This document shows positions 18,288 through 42,206 of a stretch of 64,000 nt of DNA, one piece after another (positions within the stretch are counted from its first letter, which is position 1; each line of letters begins with the position of its first letter). The DNA is taken from assembly GCA_043813875.1 (NCBI GenBank), contig JBDRKP010000054.1, positions 751 through 64,750 of the forward strand, written 5' to 3'. A model generated the notes under the pieces. It made no database searches. It saw only the letters and a program-made list of their open reading frames with translations, and was not told the origin of the DNA. Both the position numbers and the translations under genes were made by a program. The DNA is from an archaeon (GTDB lineage: Archaea > EX4484-52 > B79-G9).

Positions 18288-18493
18288 GATTTACACCATT
18301 CTCTCATAAATTACCTATTTTAAGGTAAAGTAAAACCACTTAATAGGTAAAATATACCCTATTATTAGGTATTCATATTAATAAACCTTTGGATTGATTA
18401 AAAGAAATAAATGATTATTCTGACAAAAACAGGACACGAAAACATTAACCGCAACCCCCGATTCACGTTTCCATGTCCTTAAACCCTTACAAC

Positions 18494-18811: not shown

Positions 18812-18856
18812 ATCTCAATATCCGCTCGGTTTCATTCTCCATCAAATCCACCTCAT

Positions 18857-19654
18857 CTACTTACCAAAAAAAGCGCCGAAAACAAGATACCCGAAAGCCG
18901 CAACAAGAATGATCGTCGCCCCCGACGGCAGGTCATACGCATAAGACACGAGAAGTCCAAGTCCCATGAACACAGAGGAGACGACCGTAGAGACCGCCAT
19001 CATCCCCTTGAGACTGGAAGAAAACCTCCCCGAGATCGCCGCCGGTATAGAAAGCATCGCGATCACAAGAATGATTCCCACGATCTTGATAAGAATCACA
19101 ACCGTAAGCGCGATAAGCGCAAGCAGGATCATATTCACCCTCTCCACCGGCACTCCCCTTACCGTAGCGAACTCCTCATCAAAAGACACAGCAAAAAAGT
19201 CATTATACAAAAGAATCACACCGAGAACTATGACCAGATCAAGCGCCGCCATCAAAAAAAGATCATCCAGAGTAACAGTAAGGATGCTCCCGAAAAGATA
19301 GCTCATAAGATTCGGCGCATAGCCTGGCGTCATATACACAAACACAATGCCTATCGCCATCCCCAAAGACCACATTATGCCGATTGCAGTATCCGTCCTC
19401 TCATTGGTCCTCCTGGTGATTTTCCCGATAAGCAGAGCAAATACCACGCCAAAGACAGCCGCGGCAAGGATGGGATTGACCCCGAGGAAATACCCTATCC
19501 CGATTCCGCCGAAAGCAGCATGAGAGATGCCCCCGCTGATGAACACCATCCTTTTGGATACCACATATGTCCCGATGATGCCCGCCGCCACACTAGCAAG
19601 GACCCCGGCGGCAATCGCATTCCTCATGAACTCGTACTGAAGTATCTCAATCAT
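18857..19654 (-). CDS. znuB: Zinc/manganese ABC transporter permease
   Basis: About 8 TM helices of the ZnuB/MntB family. It overlaps znuC by 4 bp (ATGA). Confidence 0.85.
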   Translation of the reverse strand: MIEILQYEFMRNAIAAGVLASVAAGIIGTYVVSKRMVFISGGISHAAFGGIGIGYFLGVNPILAAAVFGVVFALLIGKITRRTNERTDTAIGIMWSLGMAIGIVFVYMTPGYAPNLMSYLFGSILTVTLDDLFLMAALDLVIVLGVILLYNDFFAVSFDEEFATVRGVPVERVNMILLALIALTVVILIKIVGIILVIAMLSIPAAISGRFSSSLKGMMAVSTVVSSVFMGLGLLVSYAYDLPSGATIILVAAFGYLVFGAFFGK

Positions 19655-20436
19655 TTCCGCTCCCTCTTTTTCTTCTGGTGCATATCAAGCACCCTGTGCG
19701 GCACTCCGTGCGCGATAAGCTCCACCGGGCACTTGTAGGTCTTCGAAAGCACCTCAGAAGTGATCTCCTTGTCATCATGATAGAAAAGCTTCTGGTTCAC
19801 GCACGCGATCTTGTTGACATACACCGAGATGGCGCCGATATCATGCGACACAAGGACTATCGTCATCCTCTTGTTAAGCTTTAACAGAAGCTCATAGAAC
19901 CCGCTCTCGACACTCGTATCCACGCTCGCCGTCGGCTCATCAAGAAGAAGTATCTTCGGTTCAGTTGCAAGCGCCCTCGCCACAAGCACCCTCTGCACCT
20001 GCCCGCCCGAAAGCTCTCCCACCTTCCTATCCCATAGATCATGGACCCCGACAGTCTTTAAGGCATCAAGAGCGATCCGCCTGTCCTCATCATCAAACCT
20101 CTTGAACAATCCTTTGCCCATCCGCCCCATCATCACCGTATCAAGGACACTTGCAGGAAACTGCCTGTCAAAATTGCAATGCTGCGGCACATATCCAATC
20201 ATGCTCCTATTCAAAAGAGGGCTCCTCCCGTATATGCGCACATCACCCGCCGACGGCCTGATGAGCCCAAGGATCACCTTGAGTATCGTAGTCTTCCCCG
20301 CGCCGTTAGGCCCTATGATGCCCAAAAAATCATTCTCATAGATGGTAAGATTCACATCATCGAGCGCAACCACATCCCCGAACTTCACAGTAACGCAAGT
20401 AAGGCTCACCGCAAGCTCATCTTTTATCATAGGCAT
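19651..20436 (-). CDS. znuC: Zinc/manganese ABC transporter ATP-binding protein
   Basis: Walker A GPNGAGKTT, the signature LSGGQVQRV, and Walker B LLLDEP. Confidence 0.9.
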   Translation of the reverse strand: MPMIKDELAVSLTCVTVKFGDVVALDDVNLTIYENDFLGIIGPNGAGKTTILKVILGLIRPSAGDVRIYGRSPLLNRSMIGYVPQHCNFDRQFPASVLDTVMMGRMGKGLFKRFDDEDRRIALDALKTVGVHDLWDRKVGELSGGQVQRVLVARALATEPKILLLDEPTASVDTSVESGFYELLLKLNKRMTIVLVSHDIGAISVYVNKIACVNQKLFYHDDKEITSEVLSKTYKCPVELIAHGVPHRVLDMHQKKKRERK

Positions 20437-20500
20437 TATCTCAAAAACATTATTATGAAGTCAACCTTAAAAATCATTGACTGGTTTTAACAGGTAAAAC

Positions 20501-20893
20501 TCATTTTAACTCAACCATAACCGCTTCAAGCAAAGGCTCAAAACAATTTTGGGCAATCGATATGACATCATTTACCTCAACTAATTTCGGCCTGTAGCCA
20601 TAATAATTTATATTATGCCTTAATCTCCTGAGATTATCTATCACACGTATCGGTCTTTCGGTCCTGACTTCAAGCTTCAGAAGTTCCTTTATTGGCATGA
20701 CATGATCCTCGGATTCCATGCCCTTTGCAATCATCAATGCATCTCCAAGCATCCTGAAGCATTCATAAATATTTCTTATTATTGTAGAGGCTGAATCCTC
20801 GGTTGGTTGTAATGAAAGTGTGAATTTCATGTCTCGTTGTGCAGCCAGGACAATACTCAGCGCATTCTTCTTATCAGGTCTTTTATATCTCAT
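20501..20893 (-). CDS. HEPN-domain protein (partner of the nucleotidyltransferase at 20895..21527)
   Basis: A 130-aa alpha-helical protein immediately downstream (1-bp gap) of an HTH-NTase. This is the same gene order as the other two pairs. Confidence 0.55.
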   Translation of the reverse strand: MRYKRPDKKNALSIVLAAQRDMKFTLSLQPTEDSASTIIRNIYECFRMLGDALMIAKGMESEDHVMPIKELLKLEVRTERPIRVIDNLRRLRHNINYYGYRPKLVEVNDVISIAQNCFEPLLEAVMVELK

Positions 20894-20894
20894 A

Positions 20895-21527
20895 CTATGG
20901 TCTCACCTCTAAAAATCCTTCAAGTACGATTCCATTAGCGATATTAGCAAACAGATTTAAATCGATTTTATTTCTTGAGAAGACATGGACATTTACAGGC
21001 ACATTTATCCTGTATCCTAATTGAGGTATAATCCCAACCTCAAAGATTCGCACGTCTTCATCATCCAGAACTTCAACGGCAATATCTATATCGCTTTTCT
21101 CATTATCATCCCCTTTCCTGTAGCTCCCGAACAGGATAATTGCCTTTGAATTAGGAATCTGTCTATGTATTTCTTCCAGTATGCCGGATTCATATATCAT
21201 GCCTAGGTTATAGCTTATTTTTCGTTGATATAACCGGGGATGATCTTTGTTGGATGATATTCTCCATAGCTTTCCAAGAATCTCTTTTCTTAAGAAACCC
21301 TCATCAACAAGTTGTGTGACAATCCTGTTTGCAGTTGTCTTTGAGATCTTCAGTACCGTCGACAGATCAGTAAGGCTCATTTCTTTATCAGGATACGAAA
21401 AAAACCAGTATTGGATCTTCAGATACGCCTCAAGATCTTCGCGCACTTTTATTTTTTTCATTTTTCTGGCCATAAGATTGGTTACATTCGAAACTATATA
21501 AACTTTTTGATAACCGATTGGTTTCAA
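20895..21527 (-). CDS. HTH-fused nucleotidyltransferase (MNT family)
   Basis: wHTH (LSTVLKISKTTANRIVTQLVDEGFL) plus the NTase motif ILFGSYRKGDDNEKSDIDIAVEV. Confidence 0.7.
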   Translation of the reverse strand: MKPIGYQKVYIVSNVTNLMARKMKKIKVREDLEAYLKIQYWFFSYPDKEMSLTDLSTVLKISKTTANRIVTQLVDEGFLRKEILGKLWRISSNKDHPRLYQRKISYNLGMIYESGILEEIHRQIPNSKAIILFGSYRKGDDNEKSDIDIAVEVLDDEDVRIFEVGIIPQLGYRINVPVNVHVFSRNKIDLNLFANIANGIVLEGFLEVRP

Positions 21528-21933: not shown

Positions 21934-22803
21934 TCATCTCATACTCTCCGCCAGACTTTTTGAGACATTGCGCATATTAAGAAGATAGTCCTCTGCGAGC
22001 GGGTCAGCAAGAGCTATTGTCCCGTTTATTTCGCTGGCAATGGCCTGCGCATTCTTGAAATTGACCCCCGGCTGGACAAAGATGGTCTTGATGCCATTCT
22101 CCTTTGCATACTCAATCAGCCGCAAGACATCAGAGCTGCTCGGCTCCTTTCCCTCATCCTCAATCGCGACCTGCACAAGACCGTAATCACGTGCGAAATA
22201 CCCGAAAGATGGGTGAAGGATCATGAAGGTCCTCTTATCTGCGCCATTGAACATGTTCTGTATCTGCATATCAAGCATATCTATCTCAATAAGATACTTG
22301 TTATAATTATCATAATAATACTCTTTATTGACGGGATCAGCCGAAGCGAGCCCGTCATATATGTTCTTTGCGATTATCCCTGCGTTCCTCAAAGACATCC
22401 ATACATGCGGATCATTTTCGACAATAGTGATTCCATTTGAACAATTGACCACAACGATATTAGGTTTATCCCTTCCGGCCTTGTCCATGCTTTCCTCAAA
22501 TGGAATGCCGGATCCGACCATGACATGCATCCTTGCAAGAGAAAGCGTCTTAAGCTGGCTTGGCGTCGGCTCATAAGTCTCAGGGCTTGCAAGCGGCGGC
22601 ACCATCACAGTGACCTCGACCTTATCAGCGCCAATCTTCTCGACAAAATCAGCCAAAGGAAGAATACTCACAACGACATCGATTTTCTTATCATCATCAT
22701 CAGGAATAGAAGAAACATCATCATGCGCCATGCACCCCGACACAAGGACGACCGCAATGAAAGCGATCCAGATCATCATGCCTTTTTTTCCAATGCATAC
22801 CAT
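21934..22803 (-). CDS. znuA: Zinc/manganese ABC transporter substrate-binding lipoprotein
   Basis: Lipoprotein signal (MMIWIAFIAVVLVSGC) and a TroA/ZnuA-like cluster-9 SBP fold (VVVSILPLADF, HVWMSL). The track start at 22884 is likely an N-terminal over-extension. Confidence 0.85.
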   Translation of the reverse strand: MVCIGKKGMMIWIAFIAVVLVSGCMAHDDVSSIPDDDDKKIDVVVSILPLADFVEKIGADKVEVTVMVPPLASPETYEPTPSQLKTLSLARMHVMVGSGIPFEESMDKAGRDKPNIVVVNCSNGITIVENDPHVWMSLRNAGIIAKNIYDGLASADPVNKEYYYDNYNKYLIEIDMLDMQIQNMFNGADKRTFMILHPSFGYFARDYGLVQVAIEDEGKEPSSSDVLRLIEYAKENGIKTIFVQPGVNFKNAQAIASEINGTIALADPLAEDYLLNMRNVSKSLAESMR

Positions 22804-22880
22804 AATATACTCTCCGCAATTAATCTTTATCTCTGTATCTGCAAGATATGCCTGATTTTCAGGCCGCATTCCAGTACTCA

Positions 22881-23891
22881 TCAAAACCTTTCTTTGGCAA
22901 CCAGTTCGGCGATCTCGACGGCATTCAGTGCCGCCCCCCTAAGAAGTTGGTCCCCGCAGACGAAAAACTCTAAGCCGTGCTTTCCGAACACAAGATTCTG
23001 CCTGATGCGCCCGACCTCGACATCATATTTCTCAGTAGCAGTCAAAGGCATGGGATAAACATTATTCTTTACGTCATCCCTGACGACAATCCCCGAAGTC
23101 TCATCAAACAGCTTCCGCACATCATCAGCATTCACAGGCTTCACCGTCTCGACAACTATGCTCTCCGAATGCGCTCTCATCGTCGGTATCCTCACGCATG
23201 TGCAGGAGATAGGTATGCTCTCGTCCCCGAAAATCTTATGCGTCTCCCACACCACCTTCATCTCCTCCTTGGTGTATTTGTTATCAAGGAACACATCGAT
23301 ATGCGGGATAAGATTGAAAGGGATAGGATGCGCAAAAACCTTGTTCTCGGCTTTCCCGCCATCAAGCACCCGCTTGGTCTCAGAAAGAAGTTCGGCCATG
23401 CCGCCGTTCCCCGCGCCGCTTGTGGCCTGGTAGGTCGATATGATCACCTTCTTCAGACCGTATTTCTTATATATCTGGTAAAGAGGGATAGCGGCGATAG
23501 CCGTCGTGCAATTTGGATTAGCGATAAGCATAGCATCCCCGATAGCCTTTGGGTTGATCTCCGGGATGACAAGCGGCACATCCTTATCATACCTGAACGT
23601 GGAAGAATTATCGACAACAACACACCCTTCGCGAGCAGCTTTAGGCGCATTCTCCTTTGGCCATCCTCCTCCGATGGCAAAAAACGCGATATCAAGCTCT
23701 GAATAATCCGCCTTATCAGCATCCTCGACACAAATCTCCCCCATAGGCGTCTCAAGACTTTTACCGACCGACCTCTCAGATGCATAAAGCCTCAAAGACT
23801 CAATCGGGAACTTGCGCAGAGAAAGCACTTTGATGATTTCCCTTCCGACAACCCCTGTAGCCCCAAGAATACCGACTCTCATTTTTTTCAT
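22881..23891 (-). CDS. asd: Aspartate-semialdehyde dehydrogenase
   Basis: MKKMRVGILGATGVVGRE Rossmann N-terminus and a catalytic Cys region (ANPNCTT). The MKKM start is preferred over the upstream MNCLMVIG. Confidence 0.9.
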   Translation of the reverse strand: MKKMRVGILGATGVVGREIIKVLSLRKFPIESLRLYASERSVGKSLETPMGEICVEDADKADYSELDIAFFAIGGGWPKENAPKAAREGCVVVDNSSTFRYDKDVPLVIPEINPKAIGDAMLIANPNCTTAIAAIPLYQIYKKYGLKKVIISTYQATSGAGNGGMAELLSETKRVLDGGKAENKVFAHPIPFNLIPHIDVFLDNKYTKEEMKVVWETHKIFGDESIPISCTCVRIPTMRAHSESIVVETVKPVNADDVRKLFDETSGIVVRDDVKNNVYPMPLTATEKYDVEVGRIRQNLVFGKHGLEFFVCGDQLLRGAALNAVEIAELVAKERF

Positions 23892-24004
23892 ACCGATCAC
23901 CATCAAACAATTCAATGAAACTCTATTACCATTACTGCTTCATCTTTTTATAATTTATGTCATTATCGGTTGGACAACCTCAAAAAACAGAAACATTTAA
24001 ATAC

Positions 24005-27901: not shown

Positions 27902-28123
27902 AAGGATAATTGGACAGCAAGAATAATATACCTTACGTGAATCACCGAAAATATCATCCGGATGGTCTGTCTATAAATGCGATTAAGGGAAGTTTTGTTT
28001 CCGCGTGACCAGAAACAAAATTTGGTACTGACATAGTTTGGTACACTTCCCGGAATAATGCATAAACATTTAAATATTGATTATGAATATATATTCACAA
28101 CTAACCAATGGAGGTAGATAAAA

Positions 28124-28366
28124 ATGCCGAATAAAGACAGAACAGGACCCCTTGGACAAGGTGTTCAGACAGGAAGAGGTTTAGGTCCTTGTGGTGGAGG
28201 TATGCGAAAAGGATTAGGAAGAGGTTTTGGTAGAGGGCTGGGTTTAAGATGCAATAGATTAGTTCCTTTAACCGAAGCAGAGGAAAAGAAAGTCGTTGAA
28301 ACAGACCTTAAAGAACTTGATTTGGAAAAGCAAGAGATAGAGAAAAGACTAAAAGAGATGAACTGA
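28124..28366 (+). CDS. DUF5320-family small protein
   Basis: Gly/Arg-rich N-terminus (GPLGQGVQTGRGLGPCGGG) and a C-terminal coiled-coil. A GGAGG RBS lies upstream. This is the first gene of the low-GC island A. Confidence 0.7.
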   Translation: MPNKDRTGPLGQGVQTGRGLGPCGGGMRKGLGRGFGRGLGLRCNRLVPLTEAEEKKVVETDLKELDLEKQEIEKRLKEMN

Positions 28367-28428
28367 TTCATTTCTCTTGCTTTTTTCTTTTCGCAAAATT
28401 TAAATAGGAATATGAATAAGTATTCATT

Positions 28429-28902
28429 ATGGTACGTCCAAGATTGTGCAGAAGAGTTAGATTCAGCCCGGATGTAACCTATTTTAAGCCACAAGGCATT
28501 CCATTAAGAGAATTGCGAGAGGTTATTTTACATGTTGACGAATATGAGGCAGTCAGGCTTAAAGATTTAGAAGGATTAGAGCAGGAAGAATGCGCTAAAA
28601 AAATGAACATTTCACAACCGACTTTCCATCGGCTTGTGTTGTCTGCAAGAAAAAAAATAGCTGACGCCATTGTTAATGCTAAAGCAATCAAAATAGAAGG
28701 AGGTGCTTATGAAATGGTACAACCGATATTTGGAGGCGGAAGGGAACAGGCAGGAAGAATGGGCATAGGCATGGGCTTTGGAGGTCCTGCCATGACTTGC
28801 ATATGCCCTGATTGCGGATATCAGGAACAAAAGGTAAGAGAAGTGCCATGCGCCAGTAAAAAATGTCCCAAATGCGGCACACTGATGAGGAGAGGTGATT
28901 AA
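28429..28902 (+). CDS. DUF134 (UPF0251) predicted DNA-binding protein with a C-terminal zinc ribbon
   Basis: PRLCRRVRFSPDVTYFKPQGIPL...EAVRLKDLEGLEQEECAKKMNISQPTFHRLVLSARKKIADAIVNAKAIKIEG matches DUF134. The C-terminus has CPDCG...CPKCG. Confidence 0.8.
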   Translation: MVRPRLCRRVRFSPDVTYFKPQGIPLRELREVILHVDEYEAVRLKDLEGLEQEECAKKMNISQPTFHRLVLSARKKIADAIVNAKAIKIEGGAYEMVQPIFGGGREQAGRMGIGMGFGGPAMTCICPDCGYQEQKVREVPCASKKCPKCGTLMRRGD

Positions 28903-29248
28903 TATGAAAGTGGCCATAAGTTCGACTGGAAAGGATATAAACAGCAATGTTAGCAATGTGTTTGGAAGATGCCCTTATTTTGTTATCGCAGAGATTGAAA
29001 ACAAAAAAATTACAAAAATTGAATCAATGGAAAATACAACTGCGAATCAGGTGGGTATGGCAGGCATTTCTGCGGCACAGAAAGTTGCAGAAAAAAATGC
29101 AAACATTGTGATAGCAGCAGATGTTGGACCGAGAGCATTAGATGTTTTCAGGCAATTTGATATTATGGCATATAAAGGAAGCGGGACAGTCAAAGAAGTT
29201 TTGCAAAAATTTATAGACGATAGACTTGAGAAAATAGGAAGTAGGTGA
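28895..29248 (+). CDS. NifX/NifB-like dinitrogenase FeMo-cofactor-binding domain protein
   Basis: FGRCPYFVI signature of the Nitro_FeMo-Co domain. The 117-aa length fits. Confidence 0.8.
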   Translation: MINMKVAISSTGKDINSNVSNVFGRCPYFVIAEIENKKITKIESMENTTANQVGMAGISAAQKVAEKNANIVIAADVGPRALDVFRQFDIMAYKGSGTVKEVLQKFIDDRLEKIGSR

Positions 29249-29252
29249 GAAA

Positions 29253-29612
29253 ATGAAAATAGTGATTTCAACAGATGGTAAAAGAGGATTAGATGACACA
29301 GTGGCAGAACATTTTGGCAGATGTAATACATATACTTTTCTTGATGAGAAAGGCAATATTGTTGAAATAATAGACAACACCAGCGAGCACATGGGTGGCA
29401 CAGGGCTTCCACCAGAGCTTATGAAAAAACATGGAGCGGATGTCTTATTATGCAGAGGGCTTGGCCCAAGAGCTCTTGATCTGTGCAAAGAACTGGGAAT
29501 AGATGTTTATGTATGCCATGCAGAAACCGTAAAAGAAATATTTGAGAAATGGAAAAATAAGATAATTAAAAAGGCAGGTTTTGAAGATGTTTGCGAGGAG
29601 CATAGGCTATGA
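29253..29612 (+). CDS. NifX/NifB-like FeMo-cofactor-binding domain protein (second paralog)
   Basis: HFGRCNTYTFLD signature. A tandem paralog of the preceding gene. Confidence 0.8.
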   Translation: MKIVISTDGKRGLDDTVAEHFGRCNTYTFLDEKGNIVEIIDNTSEHMGGTGLPPELMKKHGADVLLCRGLGPRALDLCKELGIDVYVCHAETVKEIFEKWKNKIIKKAGFEDVCEEHRL

Positions 29613-30217
29613 AGAATAGCAAAGCAGAGGCATTTAATAGGAAATCATCTAGCCCGAAAAACAGACCCGATGATGTTATAAAAGCGTTGAGCTTAAAGCA
29701 GGGACAAAACATTGCAGACATAGGAGCAGGAGGAGGCTATTTTTCACTCAGGTTCGCAGAAATAGTCGGCGTAAAAGGAAAGGTTTATGCGATAGATATA
29801 AATCAGGATTTTCTGGAATTCATAAAAAATAGCGCTGCAGAAAAAGGTCTTGACAATTTAGAGATCGCTTTTGCCAAAGATGGCAAAATTGATTTGCCAA
29901 AGAAAAGAATTGATCTCATATTTTTCCGCAATATGACCCACCATATGGAAAACAGGGCTGAATATTTCAGGCAGCTAAATCAGTTCCTTGCTCCTCACGG
30001 CAGGATTGCCATTATAGAGTACAAAAAGGAAAGTTCCTTTACCTTCCACGGGATTTTCAGACATTACATTGCCAAAGAAACCTTGATGCAGGAGATGGAA
30101 GATGCTGGCTATGTTCCTGAGAGGGAACTTGATTTCTTGCCTGAACAGCACTTTGTTATTTACAGACGCGGGAGTTCTGCTTTAAACAAGAATAGGATTA
30201 AAGGTGAAAAAAGATGA
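29609..30217 (+). CDS. Class I SAM-dependent methyltransferase
   Basis: Motif I DIGAGGGYF and motif II KVYAIDIN. Confidence 0.75.
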   Translation: MKNSKAEAFNRKSSSPKNRPDDVIKALSLKQGQNIADIGAGGGYFSLRFAEIVGVKGKVYAIDINQDFLEFIKNSAAEKGLDNLEIAFAKDGKIDLPKKRIDLIFFRNMTHHMENRAEYFRQLNQFLAPHGRIAIIEYKKESSFTFHGIFRHYIAKETLMQEMEDAGYVPERELDFLPEQHFVIYRRGSSALNKNRIKGEKR

Positions 30218-31086
30218 GAATCGCAGTTACGGGCGGAAAAGGTGGAACAGGCAAGTCAATGGTAGCGACTTCATTAGCAGTTGAATTTGCAAGAAATGAA
30301 AAGACCCTGCTTATGGATGCGGATGCAGAATGCCCCAATGATCATTTACTGCTTTCCATAGATATGAAAAAATACGCTGCTGTTTATCAGCCGATACCTA
30401 AATGGAATTTTGATAAATGTATAAAATGTGGCAAGTGCGCTTCTGTCTGCAAACAAAATGCCATTGTTTTTGTTAAAGAGAAATATCCTGCTTTTGTTAA
30501 GGATGTTTGTATTGGTTGTAAAGCATGTATTGTTACATGCCCAAAAAAAGCTATAACTGAAACCAAAAAAGAAATCGGAACAATCTTTACAGGAAAAAAC
30601 TATAATGTAAATTTGGTTTCAGGCGAGCTCAAATTAGGAGAACTTGCATCAGGGGAGGTAGTTGCTGAATTAAGAAAATGTTCTGAAAAGATAGGCAAAA
30701 AGATGAAGGCAGATATAATTTTAATAGACTCTGCTGCAGGAGTTGGCTGCCCGGTAATCGCCTCTTTGGTCGGAACGGATTATATCGTTGGCGTAACAGA
30801 ACCAACACCATCTGCTCTTCATGATTTGAAAAGGGTTTTGTATCTGGCAAATCATTTTGGGATTAAGCATGGAATTGTCATAAACAAATTTGATCTTGAA
30901 AGAGGTTTCTGCTCAGAAATAGAGAAATTTGCAAAGGAGAACAATATACCTATTATTGGAAGGATTCCATACAGAAAAGTTTTTGTGGACTCAACAATAA
31001 AGATGAAGCCTGTTGTTGAAATAAACCCCAAATATAGAAAAACATTCGAGGAGATTATCAACAAAATAAAGATTGTGTGCGGTTAA
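30214..31086 (+). CDS. MinD/ParA-family P-loop ATPase with two embedded 4Fe-4S ferredoxin motifs
   Basis: Deviant Walker A GGKGGTGKS. Two CxxCxxCxxxCP clusters (CIKCGKCASVCKQ, CIGCKACIVTCP) are inserted after the P-loop. Confidence 0.8.
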   Translation: MRIAVTGGKGGTGKSMVATSLAVEFARNEKTLLMDADAECPNDHLLLSIDMKKYAAVYQPIPKWNFDKCIKCGKCASVCKQNAIVFVKEKYPAFVKDVCIGCKACIVTCPKKAITETKKEIGTIFTGKNYNVNLVSGELKLGELASGEVVAELRKCSEKIGKKMKADIILIDSAAGVGCPVIASLVGTDYIVGVTEPTPSALHDLKRVLYLANHFGIKHGIVINKFDLERGFCSEIEKFAKENNIPIIGRIPYRKVFVDSTIKMKPVVEINPKYRKTFEEIINKIKIVCG

Positions 31087-31116
31087 GAATGAAAGAATTG
31101 AGACATATAAACTGCA

Positions 31117-31500
31117 TTAATTTTTTTGGCATTTTTTACAGTCGTCTTTACATATACCTCTTACTTCAAGCTGAAAACTTCTTATCGAGCCAGGAATCTT
31201 GTCTTTTAGGAAATCCAGAGAGTCAATATTAAAGTGAAAAATCTTGCCAGTACTTTCACATATAAAATGGCAGTGGCTTTTATTCTGTTTGGAGTATATC
31301 GTTTTTCTGTCGCATTTATAAGAATATATCTGGTTGCTCTTTTTTAGCTCATTTAGAAACCGGTAAATTGTGGCAATTCCTATATTTTTTTCTTCTTTCT
31401 TAGCCTCTTCCAGTAAGTCTTCAGCAGTAAAAAAATTATTTATTTTTTCTAATTTTGTCTGAATGCTCTCTTTTTGTCTGGTGTTTCTTTTCTTTACCAT
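31117..31500 (-). CDS. Fur-family metalloregulator (likely Zur)
   Basis: DNA-binding helix ATIYRFL, a metal site HCHFICESTG..HF, and a C-terminal CxxC. It is divergent from znuA2. Confidence 0.75.
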   Translation of the reverse strand: MVKKRNTRQKESIQTKLEKINNFFTAEDLLEEAKKEEKNIGIATIYRFLNELKKSNQIYSYKCDRKTIYSKQNKSHCHFICESTGKIFHFNIDSLDFLKDKIPGSIRSFQLEVRGICKDDCKKCQKN

Positions 31501-31562
31501 ATAGATCTCTTATTGATAATCTTAATCAATAAGGTATTTAAAATGAGCCTATTTATAAATTT

Positions 31563-32564
31563 ATGGTGATTCCCATGAAAACTAAAATTATCTTTATGTC
31601 TGTGTTAATTGTTGCTGTTTTATTGGTTGCTGGTTGTGTAAACAATGTACAAAAAGAGTCTAAAGACAAGATGACAATTGTAACAACACTTTTTCCATTA
31701 TATGAATTTGCAAAAGAAGTCGGTGGTGAAAAGATTGATGTGACTCTTTTACTTCCACCAGGAGCAGAAGCCCACACTTTTGAGCCAAAGCCAAGCGATA
31801 TACAAAAAATAAACAACGCAGATGTTTTTTTATATATTGGAGCAGGCATGGAGCCATGGGCTCACGATATTGTGGAAGGTTCTAATAATAAGGACTTGTT
31901 GCTTTTAGATGCAAGCTCTAAAGTAACTTTGCTTAAATCAGAAGAGCATGATGAACACGAACATGAGGCAGAGGAAGAACACGATCACGAATCAGAAGAA
32001 CATGAAGAAGAGCATCAGCATGGTGAATATGACCCTCATATCTGGCTTGATTTTGAAAATGATGAAAAAATAGTGGATGCGATTGCTCAAACATTTGCCC
32101 AAAAAGACCCAAAAAATAGCGAGTTTTACATAAAAAATGCTCAAGGATATAATGCTAAGTTGAGTTCTTTGAATCAAAAGTATAGTGATGGGCTATCTAA
32201 TTGCAAACAAAAGGAATTCATATCAGGTGGGCATAACGCATTTGCATATCTTGCTCATAAATATAACCTCGAATCAATCTCAGCATTTGGAATATCCCCG
32301 GATTCTGAGCCAACTCCTCAGAAAATCAAAGAGATAGTTGATCTGACAAAAGAGCATGGCATTAAATACATATACTTTGAAAAATTAGTGAATCCAAAAA
32401 TGGCTGAGACAATTGCTCAGGAAGCAAATGCTAAAACATTAGTCTTAAATCCTGCGCATAATCTTCTAAAGGAGCAATTTCAGCAAGAAGTAACTTTCAT
32501 CTCTCTGATGGAAGAAAACTTACAGAATCTTAAAATTGGTTTGGAATGTGAATCAAATTCATGA
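31563..32564 (+). CDS. znuA: Zinc ABC transporter substrate-binding protein (island copy) with a His/Glu-rich loop
   Basis: Signal peptide plus a TroA-like SBP. A long acidic/His loop (EEHDEHEHEAEEEHDHESEEHEEEHQHGEYDPH) is diagnostic of zinc-specific ZnuA. Confidence 0.85.
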   Translation: MVIPMKTKIIFMSVLIVAVLLVAGCVNNVQKESKDKMTIVTTLFPLYEFAKEVGGEKIDVTLLLPPGAEAHTFEPKPSDIQKINNADVFLYIGAGMEPWAHDIVEGSNNKDLLLLDASSKVTLLKSEEHDEHEHEAEEEHDHESEEHEEEHQHGEYDPHIWLDFENDEKIVDAIAQTFAQKDPKNSEFYIKNAQGYNAKLSSLNQKYSDGLSNCKQKEFISGGHNAFAYLAHKYNLESISAFGISPDSEPTPQKIKEIVDLTKEHGIKYIYFEKLVNPKMAETIAQEANAKTLVLNPAHNLLKEQFQQEVTFISLMEENLQNLKIGLECESNS

Positions 32565-33295
32565 GCACCATGCTTAAACTGGAAAACATATCTTTTTCCT
32601 ATGCTAACTCGGATGTTGTAAAAGATATCTCCTTTTCAGTTAAAAAAGGAGATTTTGTAGGATTAATAGGTCCAAATGGCTCAGGAAAGACCACTCTCCT
32701 CAAAATTATATTAGGAATATTGAATCCGCGAAAAGGCTCTATTTATTTATTTGAAAGGGACTTGAAAAAATTTGATAAATGGGATAAGATTGGATATGTC
32801 CCACAAAAAGCAACAAATATCGAGAAAAATTTTCCAGCAACAGTTCATGAAGTCGTTTCTATGGGGCTTTTGGCAATTAAGAAATTTCCGAAAATAATCA
32901 CAAAACAAGATGACACAGAAATAAAAAATGCTCTTTCTGTTGTAAGGATGGAAAAATATTCACAAAAAAGGATTACTGAGCTTTCTGGAGGGCAACAGCA
33001 AAGAGTTTTAATCGCAAAAGCATTGGTAACAAAGCCAGAAATCTTGATTCTTGACGAGCCGACAACAGGAGTTGATCAGGAAAACCAGAAGTCATTTTAT
33101 GACTTGCTTGGAAAACTCAACAAAGAAGGAATGACTATTGTTTTAGTGTCCCATGATATTGGAAGAATAACTCAGTATGTAACTAAAATAGCAAGTATTA
33201 ACCAAACACTTAATTTTTATGGGAGTCACAAAGAATTTTGCTTAAAAGATCCAGCCCATAAACATGAGCATAGTTTATGCTTGGATAAAGGTTAA
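32561..33295 (+). CDS. znuC: Zinc ABC transporter ATP-binding protein (island copy)
   Basis: GPNGSGKTT, LSGGQQQRV and ILILDEP. Confidence 0.9.
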   Translation: MSTMLKLENISFSYANSDVVKDISFSVKKGDFVGLIGPNGSGKTTLLKIILGILNPRKGSIYLFERDLKKFDKWDKIGYVPQKATNIEKNFPATVHEVVSMGLLAIKKFPKIITKQDDTEIKNALSVVRMEKYSQKRITELSGGQQQRVLIAKALVTKPEILILDEPTTGVDQENQKSFYDLLGKLNKEGMTIVLVSHDIGRITQYVTKIASINQTLNFYGSHKEFCLKDPAHKHEHSLCLDKG

Positions 33296-33298
33296 AAA

Positions 33299-34147
33299 AT
33301 GATTGAAATACTATCTTACGCATTCATGCAGAAAGCATTTATTTCTGGAATAGTTATAGCTATTGCATGCTCGCTTTTGGGAATGTTTTTAGTATTAAGA
33401 AAATTCTCATTAATTGGAGATGGAATTGCTCACATCTCTTTTGGAGGAGTCGCTACCGGACTGTTATTTAATATAACACCATTTACGGGTGCTCTTTTGT
33501 TTGGATTAATAGGTTCATTTGGAATACTTAAGCTGAAAGAAAAGTCGCATTTACATGGGGATGCTGCAATAGGAATAGTAAGCCATGTAAGTTTGGGTCT
33601 TGGAATATTTATTGCCAGCATTGCAAGTGGTTTTAATGTAGATATATTGAGTTATTTGTTCGGAAGCATACTTTCAATAAAGACCAATGAGTTGGTTTTA
33701 TCTATTTTTTTGGCATTGACAGTTATTGCATTTATTCTCAGTTACTATAAAGATTTGTTTTATATCTCATTTGATGAAGAATCTGCAAAAGTTTCTGGAA
33801 TAAACGTAGATTTCCTGAATTCGATGCTTATCGTTTTGACAGCAGTTACAATTGTCTGCTCAATGAATGTGGTTGGGCTTATGCTTGCATCATCATTAAT
33901 AATATTGCCCGCTGCATCTGCCTTACAAGTTAAAGCAAGTTTTAAGAGAACTTTATTATATGCTGTGGTTATCTCAGTATTTTCAGTAGTTTCTGGACTC
34001 GTTATTGCATATTATTATGACTTTGCAGTATCTGGAACTATTGTTCTTATTAACGCCTTTGTTTTTCTATCGCTTTTGGTCTATAATAAATTGCAAACAT
34101 ATTTTTCATCACATATAAATTCTAAACCCGTAGATGAAAAAGCTTGA
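33299..34147 (+). CDS. znuB: Zinc ABC transporter permease (island copy)
   Basis: Polytopic ZnuB-family permease. Its TGA stop lies inside copy 3 of the 48-bp palindromic element (AAGCTTGA). Confidence 0.85.
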   Translation: MIEILSYAFMQKAFISGIVIAIACSLLGMFLVLRKFSLIGDGIAHISFGGVATGLLFNITPFTGALLFGLIGSFGILKLKEKSHLHGDAAIGIVSHVSLGLGIFIASIASGFNVDILSYLFGSILSIKTNELVLSIFLALTVIAFILSYYKDLFYISFDEESAKVSGINVDFLNSMLIVLTAVTIVCSMNVVGLMLASSLIILPAASALQVKASFKRTLLYAVVISVFSVVSGLVIAYYYDFAVSGTIVLINAFVFLSLLVYNKLQTYFSSHINSKPVDEKA

Positions 34148-34908: not shown

Positions 34909-35664
34909 CTATGAAACCGGTTTCATCTTATAGACTCTTGCCGCATCATCCGAATATGCAAGTTCGAATCCCTCTATCACTTCGCCATTGAGAGCCCGCC
35001 CGATATTTGTCCTCATGAATCCGATACTCAAAGGATCAACCGGCTCACCCCCGTAAGACACATAGAACGCATGTGACTTATCCTTATCCGCAGTCTGTAC
35101 ATAAAAGACGCTTGCCCCGTACTTCTCCATTACCTTCCTCAATATTTCGCTATCATACTCAGTAAAAGCCCTTGCGACATCCATAATCTTGCCATGCGCT
35201 GTGCAGTCATCGCACACAATATCATCTTTCGGCTTGCCTATATATTTAGAAACAGTAGTCGCAAGGATCTCGCGTGACGGCGCATCAAGGACAACTTCCC
35301 TCTCCGCATATCCCCTGATCATATGCCCGTGATCCCACCAGCTAAGCACCACCGCATCATCATCAGTATTCTCCTTGATCCAGTTAAGCCCGCCAACAAT
35401 CTCATCTGAAAGCATCATATCCGGCTCGACAACCTTCCCGTCCTTCACATACCGTATTTTCTTCATGTTATAAGTTGTGCCATTGGCGCTCACAACGACA
35501 TCAATGACAGTCAGGTTATACTTCCCCCCAATCACCTCAGTCCCGATAATTTCTTCAGTGAAACCGCTTGCTTGAGGCAGAGTGGCCCTGTCTTCCCTGA
35601 CGCACCCGCTAAGAAAAACAACCCCTAAAACAAAAATGATCAGAATAAATTTTCCATGGCGCAT
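34909..35664 (-). CDS. Hypothetical secreted lipoprotein
   Basis: Signal peptide with a lipobox (FLSGC). No confidently recognised domain. It contains an SWWDHGH motif. Confidence 0.45.
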   Translation of the reverse strand: MRHGKFILIIFVLGVVFLSGCVREDRATLPQASGFTEEIIGTEVIGGKYNLTVIDVVVSANGTTYNMKKIRYVKDGKVVEPDMMLSDEIVGGLNWIKENTDDDAVVLSWWDHGHMIRGYAEREVVLDAPSREILATTVSKYIGKPKDDIVCDDCTAHGKIMDVARAFTEYDSEILRKVMEKYGASVFYVQTADKDKSHAFYVSYGGEPVDPLSIGFMRTNIGRALNGEVIEGFELAYSDDAARVYKMKPVS

Positions 35665-40823: not shown

Positions 40824-40825
40824 TT

Positions 40826-40851: not shown

Positions 40852-40868
40852 AAAGGTATATAAAGCTA

Positions 40869-42157: not shown

Positions 42158-42206
42158 TGGTTGTGTGTTTGAATGGATAAATTAAGTAATTTACCTAAAA
42201 GATGGA

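What the first reader, a model, noticed from the sequence alone, without database searches (positions are those of the whole stretch)
28124..31086. Conserved-unknown metal-cofactor gene cluster on a low-GC island: DUF5320 - DUF134 - NifX-like x2 - SAM methyltransferase - MinD/ParA ATPase with double 4Fe-4S insert
Six co-directional, tightly spaced or overlapping genes. The NifX/NifB-type FeMo-co-binding domains (GRCPYF / GRCNTY) sit next to a P-loop ATPase carrying two ferredoxin Cys clusters. That arrangement suggests an Fe-S or metal-cluster carrier and insertion system. DUF134 (a predicted DNA-binding protein with a zinc ribbon) would be its regulator, and DUF5320 a small Gly/Arg-rich partner. 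This neighbourhood recurs in anaerobes but has no assigned function. Here it is horizontally acquired: lower GC, a GGAGG RBS, and adjacency to a second Zur-znuABC copy.
Basis: partly seen in the sequence, partly recalled or inferred. Interest (0 to 1): 0.55.

Follow-up and report, generated by a model that had tools for sequence, protein, structure and literature searches.

The report
Self-regulated metal-cluster cassette on acquired island
Six genes in a DPANN archaeon form an archaeal version of the bacterial "orange protein" (ORP) metal-cluster system, sit on horizontally acquired DNA, and appear to be switched by their own DNA-binding protein through a 14-base palindrome conserved in dozens of related genomes.

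Summary
All six ORFs exist at the stated coordinates, and every domain call passes Pfam's curated cut-off.

- The neighbourhood is not function-less. It is the archaeal/CPR form of the ORP cluster of anaerobes, and one NifX-like protein resembles the tail-less MTH1175/IssA type.
- New here: both promoters carry the exact palindrome TGAATA-N2-TATTCA, 7-8 nt downstream of a TTTAAATA box.
- That palindrome occurs 74 times against 0.33 expected in 927 kb from 82 related loci. It nearly always heads an operon that starts with DUF5320 and contains DUF134.
- The cargo of these operons varies but is always metal-related: CDF, ZIP and ArsP transporters, EncFtn, NifX-like proteins and the Fe-S ATPase.
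- DUF134 is therefore most likely the autoregulator. This is inferred, not shown.
- Long DUF134 proteins share a six-cysteine C-terminal module with neighbouring CDF pumps, which suggests metal sensing.

Horizontal acquisition is supported.
- Island GC3 is 0.24-0.41, against 0.51-0.65 in the flanks.
- Synteny with a relative breaks exactly at the island.
- A contig from another sample carries the island at 92-93% identity.
- CPR bacteria carry the same cassette, with the ATPase 82% identical.

The island spans 28.07-34.15 kb and includes Fur-znuABC. The GGAGG RBS is not evidence of transfer. The biochemical function remains inferred.

The parts
28069..28076 (+). Promoter P1 TATA box (TTTAAATA), preceded by an A-rich BRE-like stretch
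   Evidence: Sequence. In related loci, 67 of 74 exact operator sites have a TATA-like box starting 11-15 nt before the operator start.
28084..28097 (.). Operator O1, a perfect palindrome TGAATATATATTCA lying between the TATA box and the expected transcription start
   Evidence: Exact matches in the window: 2 against 0.05 expected. In related loci: 74 exact against 0.33 expected in 927 kb. The family consensus extends to TTATGAATATATATTCATAA.
28110..28114 (+). Shine-Dalgarno-like GGAGG, 9 nt before the DUF5320 start codon
28124..28366 (+). DUF5320 protein, 80 aa. The N-terminal half is cationic and Gly/Arg-rich, with the motif TGPxGxGxxTGRGxGxC. The C-terminal half looks like a coiled coil.
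   Evidence: PF17253, 2.7e-10. It is the first gene of the operator-headed operon in 61 of 82 loci. The best 150 of 1048 representatives are all stand-alone proteins of 59-137 aa.
28377..28394 (+). T-rich stretch (T6, T4) after the DUF5320 stop codon; a possible archaeal terminator or attenuator
   Evidence: Sequence only; function is inferred.
28399..28406 (+). Promoter P2 TATA box (TTTAAATA)
   Evidence: It has the same TATA-to-operator spacing as P1, and the arrangement recurs at DUF134 genes in L003, L021, L025 and L026.
28413..28426 (.). Operator O2, TGAATAAGTATTCA, ending 2 nt before the DUF134 ATG. This implies a leaderless DUF134 mRNA.
   Evidence: A site the same 2 nt before the DUF134 start codon (listed as distance 3 in the table) occurs in 12 other loci there.
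28429..28902 (+). DUF134/UPF0251 protein, 157 aa. It has an N-terminal beta element, an HTH like sigma-70 region 4, a disordered Gly/Arg linker, and a six-cysteine C-terminal ribbon (C124xC126xxC129...C141...C146xxC149). It is the putative autoregulator.
   Evidence: PF02001, 1.8e-27. The six Cys are invariant in 102 sequences. AF2 gives pLDDT 87-93 for the HTH region. Foldseek matches sigma-E region 4 and DeoR HTH with rmsd 0.6-0.9 A over 40-48 residues. The C-terminal module also occurs on neighbouring CDF pumps.
28904..29248 (+). NifX-like protein 1 (Nitro_FeMo-Co domain, 114 aa), MTH1175/IssA-type without a tail, with one conserved Cys in FGRCPYF
   Evidence: PF02579, 2.9e-19. Best PDB match is MTH1175 (1EO1) at 1.9e-21; ORP (2WFB) scores 6e-7. 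Conservation is shown.
29253..29612 (+). NifX-like protein 2 (119 aa), Cys/His-rich. It has HFGRC at the start and CEEH at the end, a pattern like the CxHFGHCE and CDH motifs of the MrpORP Di-Nase domain.
   Evidence: PF02579, 2.4e-17. PDB matches are PH0822 and TM1816. Conserved residues are shown. The MrpORP motifs are described in PMC6345978.
29609..30217 (+). Class I SAM methyltransferase, 202 aa, with no cysteine. It occupies a facultative slot.
   Evidence: Methyltransf_31, 9.6e-19. Best PDB match is the uncharacterised 3DH0. The gene is precisely absent (29622-30213) from the 92-93% identical L003. A radical SAM gene fills this slot in L005. GC3 is 0.41.
30214..31086 (+). MinD/ParA-class P-loop NTPase, 290 aa, with an inserted 2x[4Fe-4S] ferredoxin domain (Orp3/Orp4 type). 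Conserved features: GGKGGTGKS, C40, C179, NKFD.
   Evidence: Pfam CbiA, ParA, Fer4 and Fer4_NifH. Conservation is shown. It is 37% and 30% identical over full length to the two ATPases beside MrpORP in Peptoclostridium. It is 78-95% identical to 119 homologues, which include CPR bacteria.
31117..31500 (-). Fur-family regulator, 127 aa, convergent with the cluster and divergent from znuA. It is part of the same low-GC island.
   Evidence: PF01475, 2.7e-20. GC3 is 0.33. The same arrangement occurs in L003.
31510..31532 (.). Inverted repeat TTATTGAT-N7-ATCAATAA in the Fur/znuA intergenic region; a candidate Zur/Fur box
   Evidence: In L003 both arms are identical while the spacer differs.
31563..34147 (+). 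Second znuA-znuC-znuB copy (ZnuA with a His/Glu-rich loop, ABC ATPase, ABC-3 permease), belonging to the island
   Evidence: Pfam ZnuA 4.1e-84, ABC_tran and ABC-3. GC3 is 0.24-0.28. The region is 91.7% identical to L003. In tblastx the proteins are only 34-45% identical to the native-type ZnuABC of relative L094.

Best explanation
The six genes form an autoregulated operon for handling metal-sulfur clusters. It is the archaeal/CPR form of the ORP ('orange protein') cluster. It lies on a 6-kb horizontally acquired metal-homeostasis island (about 28.07-34.15 kb) that also carries Fur-znuABC.

Proposed working:
1. DUF134 binds as a dimer to the palindromes O1 and O2. These sit directly downstream of the two TATA boxes, so bound DUF134 would block transcription of DUF5320 and of the DUF134-to-ATPase operon.
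2. Its six-cysteine C-terminal module, possibly together with the Gly/Arg-rich DUF5320, senses a metal or metal-sulfide signal and releases the operator.
3. The induced products are two NifX/ORP/IssA-type small proteins and a dimeric P-loop NTPase. The small proteins would hold iron-sulfur or other metal-sulfide species. The NTPase carries two ferredoxin-type [4Fe-4S] clusters and would use nucleotide hydrolysis and electron transfer to load, unload or pass on those clusters.
4. The methyltransferase is an optional accessory.

What is shown: gene content and domains; conservation of the operator and its position; the variable metal-related cargo in relatives; homology to ORP-cluster ATPases; compositional and syntenic evidence of acquisition.

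What is inferred: that DUF134 is the protein binding the operator; repression as the mode of control; the ligand; cluster binding by the NifX-like proteins; any complex with the ATPase.
For: Domains:
- All six assignments pass Pfam cut-offs.

Operator:
- Exact palindromes occur only at the two promoters in the window, 2 against 0.05 expected.
- In 82 non-redundant related loci there are 74 exact sites against 0.33 expected, present in 65 loci.
- With up to 1 mismatch there are 114 sites. Of these, 79 lie within 120 bp upstream of DUF5320 or DUF134.
- 67 of 74 exact sites have a TATA-like box 11-15 nt upstream.
- Operator-headed operons contain DUF134 in 66 loci and DUF5320 in 61 of 82. Their cargo includes NifX (24), Trx-CcdA (14), split ArsP (14), the Fe-S ATPase (11), CDF (8), EncFtn (8) and ZIP (4).
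- The operator also occurs with DUF134 but without DUF5320, for example in L024, L054, L064 and L071.

DUF134 as the binding protein:
- Its HTH is modelled with pLDDT 87-93 and superposes on sigma-E region 4 and DeoR DNA-binding domains.
- Bacterial DUF134 genes carry different paired palindromes and a different recognition helix.
- The Cys6 module is shared with adjacent CDF pumps, E 1e-8 to 1e-14.
- Other CDFs in these operons are fused to a Nitro_FeMo-Co domain.

Link to ORP and IssA:
- Peptoclostridium has DUF134 > NifX > 2x ATPase > MrpORP.
- The window ATPase is 37% and 30% identical to those two ATPases, E about 1e-45.
- NifX1 matches MTH1175 at 1.9e-21 and ORP 2WFB at 6e-7.
- Published biochemistry: Orp3/4 bind [4Fe-4S], the ORP protein holds a Mo-Cu-S cluster, and MrpORP's Di-Nase domain binds Fe-S (PMC6345978). 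IssA stores thioferrate (PMC5524996).

Horizontal transfer:
-.
Against: - No experiment links DUF134 to the operator. The loci were selected through DUF134 homology, so co-occurrence is partly built in.
- Repression, as opposed to activation, is inferred from site position only.
- The ligand is unknown. The cargo in relatives spans Zn-type CDF, ZIP, ferritin-like, ArsP permeases and thiol-disulfide membrane proteins, so no single metal is indicated.
- The cluster has one ATPase, not the Orp3/Orp4 pair, and no MrpORP.
- NifX1 has a single conserved Cys and no IssA-type tail.
- The physiological role of the Desulfovibrio ORP complex itself is unsettled; cell division has been proposed.
- The AF2 model of the ATPase failed (pLDDT 43), so there is no structural check.
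Confidence: 0.6

Rival explanations
1. Thiophilic-metal or metalloid stress module. The NifX/ORP-like proteins would sequester toxic thiometallates or soft metals (Mo/Cu/Zn/Cd/As) as metal-sulfide clusters. The ATPase and methyltransferase would process them. DUF134 would be a heavy-metal sensor that also switches on exporters (CDF, ArsP).
For: - ORP binds [S2MoS2CuS2MoS2]3- and other metal variants (PMC6345978).
- Cargo in relatives includes CDF pumps with the Zn-type HxxxD/HxxxD motifs, ArsP_1 and ArsP_2 'heavy-metal exporter' permeases, and Trx-CcdA proteins.
- The methyltransferase gives weak, sub-threshold hits to arsenite methyltransferase models.
- The Cys6 module is typical of soft-metal binding.
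Against: - The methyltransferase has no cysteine, whereas ArsM needs conserved Cys (this requirement is from my own knowledge). It is also dispensable, being absent from L003.
- Importers (ZIP, ZnuABC) and a ferritin-like EncFtn are also linked to these operons. That fits homeostasis better than pure detoxification.
- No metal specificity could be tested.
Confidence: 0.2
2. Cell-division or positioning system. The MinD-like ATPase with its NifX-like partners would place the division site or another structure, as proposed for the Desulfovibrio ORP complex.
For: - The ATPase has a deviant Walker A box and is MinD/ParA-class; it matches TIGR01969 minD_arch at 3.7e-16, though below that model's cut-off.
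- Loss of orp expression gives morphological defects, and MrpORP is polar in D. vulgaris (PMC6345978).
Against: - There are no MinC/MinE/FtsZ-type partners in the cluster.
- The co-regulated cargo in relatives consists of metal transporters and storage proteins, not division genes.
- CDF-NifX fusions tie the NifX domain to metal transport.
- The ferredoxin insert and conserved Cys residues point to redox or cluster chemistry.
Confidence: 0.1
3. Nitrogenase-type cofactor (FeMo-co/NifB-co) maturation remnant. The NifX-like proteins and a NifH-like ATPase would serve a nitrogenase-like enzyme.
For: - Pfam names the domain 'Dinitrogenase iron-molybdenum cofactor'. The ATPase gives a Fer4_NifH hit at 5.3e-8.
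Against: - No nifHDK, nifEN or nifB radical-SAM gene was seen among the ORFs annotated in the window or in the called genes of the related loci examined.
- The hosts are DPANN and CPR organisms with small genomes.
- The best structural relatives are the non-nif MTH1175, PH0822 and TM1816 proteins.
Confidence: 0.03

Closest known systems
ORP (orange protein) gene cluster and complex of Desulfovibrio vulgaris / D. alaskensis (Orp3, Orp4, Orp5, Orp8, MrpORP; Fievet 2011; PMC6345978)
   Same: - It has single-domain Nitro_FeMo-Co proteins.
- It has MinD-class ATPases with two [4Fe-4S] ferredoxin motifs. The window ATPase is 30-37% identical over full length to the two ATPases in an MrpORP-containing cluster.
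- A DUF134 gene is the first gene of that bacterial cluster.
- It is restricted to anaerobes.
   Different: - Here there is one ATPase instead of two, and two distinct NifX-like proteins.
- There is no MrpORP.
- There is no sigma-54/EBP control. Instead there are archaeal TATA promoters with a palindromic operator.
- A DUF5320 gene leads the operon.
- A methyltransferase is optional.
- The cluster lies on an acquired island together with Fur-znuABC.
IssA iron-sulfur storage protein of Pyrococcus furiosus (PMC5524996)
   Same: - It shares the IPR003731/Nitro_FeMo-Co globular domain.
- NifX1's best solved relative is MTH1175 (1.9e-21), which that paper places as a tail-less IssA-type protein.
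- IssA is an archaeal anaerobe protein that holds an anionic Fe-S species.
   Different: - Neither NifX-like protein here has the cationic Gly/Arg/aromatic tail that defines IssA.
- A compositionally similar segment sits instead on the separate DUF5320 protein and in the DUF134 linker. This is a resemblance only and was not tested.
NifX / NafY / NifB C-terminal domain (nitrogenase cofactor carriers)
   Same: - Same Pfam domain, PF02579. These are small proteins that carry complex Fe-S clusters.
   Different: - There is no nif context and no radical SAM domain.
- The hosts are not diazotrophs. Sequence relatives are the non-nif clades.
SIMIBI-class metal/cluster NTPases (MinD, Mrp/NBP35/ApbC, CooC, NifH)
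   Same: - It has the deviant Walker A box GGKGGTGKS.
- PDB sequence hits include MinD, an Mrp homologue and CooC.
- It gives a Fer4_NifH Pfam hit.
   Different: - A two-cluster ferredoxin domain is inserted after switch I.
- There is no CxxC Mrp motif.
- C40 and C179 are conserved, and so is an NKxD-like motif.
- No member of this subfamily has a solved structure.
Autoregulated metal-sensing repressors with palindromic boxes (Fur/Zur, DtxR, ArsR/SmtB, NikR)
   Same: - A palindromic operator overlaps the promoter of the regulator's own operon and of metal transport and storage genes.
- A Cys-rich putative sensor domain is present.
   Different: - The fold is unrelated. It is an HTH like sigma-70 region 4 plus a Cys6 ribbon, and DUF134 has no solved structure.
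- It is paired with a small Gly/Arg-rich coiled-coil protein.
- The ligand is unknown.

Membership tests
DUF5320 (PF17253) / DUF134 (PF02001, UPF0251) | Match to the Pfam model above the gathering score | tested here: met
   41.7 bits against 27, and 96.2 bits against 27.
ORP gene cluster (Desulfovibrio type) | Single-domain Nitro_FeMo-Co protein (Orp8/ORP-like) | tested here: met
   PF02579 at 2.9e-19 and 2.4e-17. PDB ORP 2WFB scores 6e-7 and 2.9e-5.
ORP gene cluster (Desulfovibrio type) | P-loop ATPase carrying two [4Fe-4S] ferredoxin motifs (Orp3/Orp4 type) | tested here: met
   Architecture shown. The ATPase is 37% and 30% identical, E 8e-45 and 1e-45, to the two ATPases next to the annotated MrpORP in Peptoclostridium.
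ORP gene cluster (Desulfovibrio type) | Two paralogous ATPases (Orp3 + Orp4) | tested here: not met
   The window has only one such gene. Some related loci have two.
ORP gene cluster (Desulfovibrio type) | MrpORP (Mrp/NBP35 domain fused to a Nitro_FeMo-Co domain) | tested here: not met
   NCBIfam NF041136 gives only partial, sub-threshold hits, 39-53 bits against a cut-off of 450. No such gene was found among the ORFs annotated next to the cluster.
ORP gene cluster (Desulfovibrio type) | Sigma-54 / enhancer-binding-protein control of divergent operons | tested here: not met
   The host is archaeal, with TATA-box promoters. There is a single co-directional operon and no EBP gene.
ORP gene cluster (Desulfovibrio type) | Physical complex of the ATPases with the NifX-like proteins | not testable with these tools
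   This needs pull-down or co-purification.
IssA (thioferrate storage) | Nitro_FeMo-Co globular domain of the IssA/MTH1175 clade | tested here: inconclusive
   NifX1's best PDB hit is MTH1175 at 1.9e-21. No phylogeny was made.
IssA (thioferrate storage) | Cationic, glycine- and aromatic-rich C-terminal tail of about 70 residues | tested here: not met
   NifX1 is 114 aa and NifX2 is 119 aa, and both end with the globular domain.
NifX/NafY/NifB nitrogenase maturation | nif gene context or a NifB radical-SAM domain | tested here: not met
   No nif genes were seen among the window ORFs annotated or in the called genes of the related loci examined.
MinD/ParA division or partition ATPases | Deviant Walker A box (xKGGxxK[ST]) | tested here: met
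   GGKGGTGKS at residues 7-15, invariant in the alignment.
MinD/ParA division or partition ATPases | Score above the curated family cut-off, plus MinC/MinE or ParB partners | tested here: not met
   minD_arch scores 59 bits against a cut-off of 201.75. No partner genes lie in the cluster.
Fur/Zur-regulated ZnuABC uptake system (island part) | FUR-domain regulator divergent from ZnuA, an ABC ATPase and an ABC-3 permease, with a palindrome in the shared promoter region | tested here: met
   Pfam hits. The inverted repeat at 31510-31532 has both arms conserved in L003. Metal specificity was not tested.

The most novel reading that the evidence does not exclude
DUF134, together with DUF5320, is a previously unrecognised family of metal- or metal-sulfide-sensing transcription regulators. 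It has its own conserved box (TTATGAATATATATTCATAA in DPANN, GCATATGC-type in Firmicutes and Enterobacteria). It governs a modular, mobile metal-homeostasis cassette that has been exchanged between CPR bacteria and DPANN archaea. Within this cassette, the Gly/Arg-rich half of DUF5320 and the DUF134 linker would bind anionic Fe-S or thiometallate species, as the IssA tail does. The NifX-like proteins plus the Fe-S ATPase would form a minimal cluster storage and delivery machine for organisms with reduced genomes.
Probability: 0.3. Interest if true: 0.8.

Novelty: new variant of a known kind. Interest (0 to 1): 0.62.

Why it matters
- DUF134, DUF5320 and the ferredoxin-insert MinD ATPases are widespread 'conserved unknowns' of anaerobes. 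The role of the ORP complex has been open since 2011.
- The conserved operator gives a concrete experimental handle: EMSA or footprinting with and without metals. It also gives a way to read the regulon directly from genomes.
- The variable cargo (CDF, ZIP, ArsP, EncFtn, NifX, Fe-S ATPase) and the domain fusions (CDF-NifX, CDF-Cys6) tie the NifX-like domain to metal trafficking outside nitrogen fixation.
- The ATPase is 82% identical between a DPANN archaeon and CPR bacteria, within a syntenic cassette. This is a clear case of inter-domain gene sharing among ultra-small, probably symbiotic, microbes. It suggests how such organisms obtain metal-handling functions.

Tried and rejected
- Exact-protein look-ups for the window's ATPase, FeoB and Asd found no record. 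The source was therefore identified only through homology: 100% matches to NCBI 'MAG: archaeon' proteins on a 65,316-bp contig.
- PDB sequence searches found no solved relative of DUF134 or DUF5320.
- Literature searches for DUF134, DUF5320, UPF0251, COG1149, COG1342 and the operator sequence found nothing functional. Fievet 2011 (PMC3133258) is not held, so I could not verify my recollection that DVU2107 is a DUF134 protein.
- The AF2 model of the ATPase, built from 48 homologues that are all at least 78% identical, was unusable (pLDDT 42.9). No fold search was run on it, and the idea of a NifH-like inter-subunit cluster at C40/C179 stays untested.
- A search for DUF5320 fusions, as a test of the 'IssA tail in trans' idea, found none. 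The best 150 of 1048 representatives are all stand-alone small proteins. The IssA tail sequence could not be retrieved from the paper's supplement.
- There are no flanking direct repeats at the island, no tRNA in the window and no integrase among the island's ORFs. No Rfam family is present in the window.
- No relatives of the ATPase or DUF134 occur in viral contigs.
- The Cys6 module matches no specific Pfam family, only generic zinc ribbons below threshold.
- Rejected: the GGAGG RBS as evidence of transfer.
- Rejected: ArsM identity for the methyltransferase. It has no Cys and gives only sub-threshold hits.
- Rejected: a nitrogenase-related role, because there is no nif context.

Full report
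**Observation.** The window has six co-directional ORFs on the + strand at 28124-28366, 28429-28902, 28895/28904-29248, 29253-29612, 29609-30217 and 30214-31086. Pfam confirms every assignment above its curated cut-off:
- DUF5320, 2.7e-10.
- DUF134, 1.8e-27, with a weaker Sigma70_r4_2 hit over the HTH.
- Two Nitro_FeMo-Co domains, 2.9e-19 and 2.4e-17.
- A class I SAM methyltransferase.
- A CbiA/ParA P-loop protein with two ferredoxin motifs and a Fer4_NifH hit.

NCBIfam has no specific family for any of them. The NifX-like proteins and the ATPase give partial, sub-threshold hits to 'iron-sulfur cluster carrier protein MrpORP'. The first NifX-like gene most likely starts at ATG 28904, after GAGGTGA, which gives 114 aa as in its closest relative.

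**Host.** The neighbouring asd product is 100% identical to an NCBI 'MAG: archaeon' protein on a 65,316-bp contig. Its next relatives (74-91%) are labelled archaeon, Woesearchaeota or Nanoarchaeota where a name is given. The window also encodes NOG1, RtcA, A-type ATPase A/B and archaeal ApgM. The host is therefore a DPANN-type archaeon.

**Promoters and operator.**
- Upstream of DUF5320 lie TTTAAATA (28069-28076), the perfect palindrome TGAATATATATTCA (28084-28097) and GGAGG (28110-28114).
- After a T-rich stretch, the 62-nt gap before DUF134 repeats the design: TTTAAATA (28399-28406) and TGAATAAGTATTCA (28413-28426), ending 2 nt before the ATG.
- TGAATA-N2-TATTCA occurs exactly twice in 64 kb, both times here, against 0.05 expected.

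**Related loci.** DUF134 homologues number in the thousands (4345 at E <= 1e-3). Eighty species-representative genome loci were fetched. Nearly all are DPANN archaea; the set also has a Bathyarchaeota MAG, MAGs labelled Methanosarcinales and two bacterial MAGs. Six metagenome contigs were added.
- In 82 non-redundant loci (927 kb) the exact palindrome occurs 74 times against 0.33 expected, in 65 loci.
- With up to 1 mismatch there are 114 sites. Of these, 79 lie within 120 bp upstream of a DUF5320 or DUF134 start.
- 67 of 74 exact sites have a TATA-like box 11-15 nt upstream. The consensus extends to the 20-bp palindrome TTATGAATATATATTCATAA.
- Sites often come in pairs 24 or about 38 bp apart, or as a second site abutting the DUF134 start codon.

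**Operon content in relatives.** Operons headed by the operator almost always begin with DUF5320 (61 of 82 loci) and contain DUF134 (66 of 82). The rest is variable cargo:
- NifX-like proteins, 24 loci.
- A thioredoxin-CcdA-like membrane protein, 14 loci.
- Split ArsP_1 permease, 14 loci.
- The ferredoxin-insert ATPase, 11 loci.
- CDF pumps, 8 loci.
- EncFtn-like ferritin, 8 loci.
- ZIP transporters, 4 loci.
- Occasionally ArsP_2, thioredoxin or radical SAM genes.

The operator also occurs with DUF134 alone, without DUF5320 (L024, L054, L064, L071). DUF134 is thus the constant HTH protein and the best candidate for the binding factor. This is an inference, and the loci were chosen through DUF134 homology.

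**Proteins.**
- *DUF134.* It has an invariant core (F19 K20 P21...S62-P64 T65 F66...R68...A73 R74), a Gly/Arg linker, and six invariant cysteines C124xC126xxC129...C141...C146xxC149. AF2 gives pLDDT 87-93 for the helical region, a disordered linker at 96-121, and about 70 for the ribbon. Foldseek's best PDB matches are sigma-E region 4 bound to DNA and the DeoR DNA-binding domain, with rmsd 0.6-0.9 A over 40-48 residues.
- *The Cys6 module.* The linker plus Cys6 ribbon recurs at the C-terminus of CDF pumps encoded next to DUF134 (blastp 1e-8 to 1e-14). It matches no specific Pfam family.
- *CDF-NifX fusions.* Other CDFs in these operons end in a Nitro_FeMo-Co domain. This fusion links the NifX-like domain to cation transport.
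- *DUF5320.* Family members share MPxxDGTGPxGxGPxTGRGxGxC, GRGFGRGFGW-type repeats, and a C-terminal heptad-like LTKEEEKKILEAELKEIE... segment. The best 150 of 1048 representatives are all small stand-alone proteins.
- *NifX1.* It is closest to MTH1175 (1.9e-21) and also matches D. gigas ORP (6e-7). Its orthologues conserve FGRCPYF.
- *NifX2.* It is closest to PH0822 and TM1816. It conserves HFGRC, NTSEHMGGTGLPPEL and a terminal CEEH. This recalls the CxHFGHCE and CDH motifs proposed to hold the [3Fe-4S] cluster of MrpORP's Di-Nase domain (PMC6345978).
- *The ATPase.* It conserves GGKGGTGKS, DADxECPN (C40), two CxxCxxCxxxC motifs, GxGCPVI (C179), VTEPTP and NKFD.
- *The methyltransferase.* It has no cysteine. 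Its best solved relative is the uncharacterised 3DH0.

**Link to known systems.** On the Peptoclostridium acidaminophilum megaplasmid the annotated order is DUF134 > NifB/NifX family > ATP-binding > ATP-binding > 'iron-sulfur cluster carrier protein MrpORP'. The window ATPase aligns over full length with both of those ATPases: 37% identity (8e-45) and 30% identity (1e-45). This is the ORP cluster described in Desulfovibrio (PMC6345978):
- Orp3 and Orp4 carry two [4Fe-4S] motifs each.
- Orp8/ORP holds a non-covalent Mo-Cu-S cluster.
- MrpORP transfers Fe-S clusters to Orp3-Orp4-Orp8.
- The complex's physiological role is unsettled; cell division has been suggested.

IssA of P. furiosus uses the same globular domain plus a cationic Gly/Arg/aromatic tail to store thioferrate. 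MTH1175 is a tail-less member of that clade (PMC5524996). Klebsiella plasmids carry DUF134 > NifX > PaaI > Dps near an ArsR gene.

Bacterial DUF134 promoters have other paired palindromes: TTGACATATGCCA...TGGCATATGTCAA in Peptoclostridium, and TTGCATATGCCA / AGCATATGCCAA in Klebsiella. The recognition helix differs accordingly, SQPTFHR against ARTTVQK and SRQTLAN. This is consistent with DUF134 reading these boxes.

**Horizontal acquisition.**
- *Composition.* GC3 of the measured island genes from DUF5320 to ZnuB (28124-34147) is 0.24-0.34, and 0.41 for the methyltransferase. It is 0.51-0.65 for feoB, asd, the thioredoxin-like gene and the native znuABC. The 38-48 kb type I R-M region is a second such island.
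- *Synteny.* A relative with Asd 81% identical (L094) has the order znuB-znuC-znuA-asd-ATPase_2-feoB-feoA, then a 340-aa gene, then the homologue of window 34909-35664. It has no island. A second relative (L093, Asd 82% identical) shares the asd-feoB-feoA block, but its contig ends shortly beyond feoA. The island Znu proteins are only 34-45% identical to that native-type system.
- *Another sample.* Contig L003 is 93.4% identical over 28074-29621 and 91.7% identical over 30214-34108. It lacks exactly 29622-30213, the methyltransferase.
- *CPR bacteria.* The ATPase's 119 best non-self homologues are 78-95% identical. They include proteins labelled Andersenbacteria, Patescibacteria, Thermoprotei and Aenigmarchaeota. 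CPR loci L090-L092 carry DUF5320 > NifX > NifX > ATPase > DUF134; L092 is an 831-kb scaffold with FtsX, RF-1, DivIC and GyrB. Their identity to the window proteins is 82% (ATPase), 75% (NifX2), 62% (NifX1), 59% (DUF134 N-domain) and 52% (DUF5320). That is higher than to the archaeal locus L005, at 72/69/55/58/37%.
- *CPR promoter.* In CPR the promoter is sigma-70-like (TTGACA...CATAAT), with ATGGGTATATATTCAT in the spacer. This keeps one operator half-site.
- *No mobile-element marks.* No att-like repeats, tRNA or integrase mark the island, and no relatives were found in viral contigs.
- *The RBS.* Shine-Dalgarno-like motifs precede 5 of the 6 cluster genes. They also precede internal operon genes in native DNA, so the GGAGG is not evidence of transfer.
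- *Fur-znuABC linkage.* Besides the near-identical contig L003, it recurs next to the cassette in L055 in a different arrangement, and loosely in L043. The Fur/znuA intergenic inverted repeat TTATTGAT-N7-ATCAATAA keeps both arms in L003 while its spacer differs.

**Most likely mechanism.**
- *Shown:* an operon with two TATA-plus-operator promoters; a conserved cis element tied to DUF5320/DUF134 operons with metal-related cargo; an HTH protein with a Cys6 module shared with metal pumps; homology of the effectors to ORP-cluster and IssA-type proteins; acquisition by transfer.
- *Inferred:* DUF134 dimers occupy O1 and O2 and repress transcription. A metal or metal-sulfide signal, sensed by the Cys6 module and perhaps by DUF5320, relieves this. 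The NifX-like proteins then bind Fe-S or other metal-sulfide species, and the Fe-S NTPase drives their loading or transfer. I put about 0.6 on this overall picture. I put more on 'DUF134 is the operator-binding autoregulator' (about 0.75) and on acquisition (about 0.85), and less on any specific ligand.

**Rivals.**
- A soft-metal or metalloid sequestration and detoxification module (0.2).
- An ORP-style role in cell division (0.1).
- A nitrogenase-cofactor role (0.03).

**Novelty.** The gene neighbourhood is a variant of the known ORP cluster, so it is not categorically new. I found none of the following in the searchable literature:
- the conserved operator;
- the DUF5320-first modular cassette;
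- the Cys6 module shared with CDF pumps;
- the CDF-NifX fusions;
- the near-identical cassettes in CPR bacteria and DPANN archaea.

**Dead ends.**
- The AF2 model of the ATPase failed (pLDDT 42.9).
- No DUF5320 fusions were found.
- No solved structures exist for DUF134 or DUF5320.
- Fievet 2011 is not held.
- The IssA tail sequence could not be retrieved.
- The window contig is not in the exact-match index.

Noticed in passing
window 38025-48354: A second low-GC island (GC3 0.23-0.32). It carries a type I restriction enzyme R subunit (38025-40823), an ORF6N-domain gene, a Schlafen/AlbA_2-HATPase_c_4-HTH gene and several ORFs with no Pfam hit.
   Followed up: partly
window 17204-21527: The native znuABC operon (ZnuA 21934-22884, ZnuC 19651-20436, ZnuB 18857-19654, all on the - strand) is interrupted and flanked by nucleotidyltransferase/HEPN-type pairs (20895-21527 + 20501-20893; 17661-18287 + 17204-17677). 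In relative L094 the three znu genes are contiguous.
   Followed up: partly
window 23915-23957; L093 6852-7283; L094 9458-9925: Two related genomes carry a DtxR-type (Fe_dep_repress) regulator gene between the ATPase_2/DUF234 gene and asd. The window has only a 41-nt gap there, so this lineage has lost or never had that iron regulator at this site.
   Followed up: no
L071 8844-10085; L056 1658-2902; L012 1965-3242: These loci encode CDF cation-efflux transporters (Cation_efflux + ZT_dimer) fused to a C-terminal Nitro_FeMo-Co (NifX-like) domain, inside DUF134 operons. Pfam was run on the L071 protein only.
   Followed up: partly
L001 5085-6128; L034 5967-7007; L058 6378-7424; L069 3237-4310 and others: These loci encode CDF transporters with HxxxD/HxxxD motifs whose C-terminus carries the same Gly/Arg linker and six-cysteine ribbon as long DUF134 proteins. 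No Pfam family describes this module.
   Followed up: partly
L090, L091, L092 (CPR bacteria): The same cassette occurs in bacterial genomes in the order DUF5320 > NifX > NifX > Fe-S ATPase > DUF134. Its ATPase is 82% identical to the archaeal window protein. The CPR DUF134 has a different four-cysteine C-terminal ribbon, and the operator half-site sits inside a sigma-70-type promoter spacer.
   Followed up: partly
window 31940-32032 (ZnuA residues ~126-160): The island ZnuA has a His/Glu/Asp-rich loop (EEHDEHEHEAEEEHDHESEEHEEEHQHGEYDPH) encoded by imperfect DNA repeats. Such loops are typical of zinc-specific ZnuA proteins.
   Followed up: no
window 30883-30894 (ATPase residues 224-227): An NKFD motif (N224 and K225 invariant in 48 homologues) resembles the guanine-specificity motif of GTPases such as HypB and UreG. 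The 'ATPase' may therefore prefer GTP.
   Followed up: no
window 11255-14416: A 1053-aa ORF with native composition (GC3 0.60) has no Pfam hit at E <= 1e-5.
   Followed up: no
L003 (5,625-bp contig): This contig ends within about 100 nt of both island borders. That is the pattern expected when an assembler breaks at DNA present in several genomic contexts, which hints that the island is mobile.
   Followed up: no
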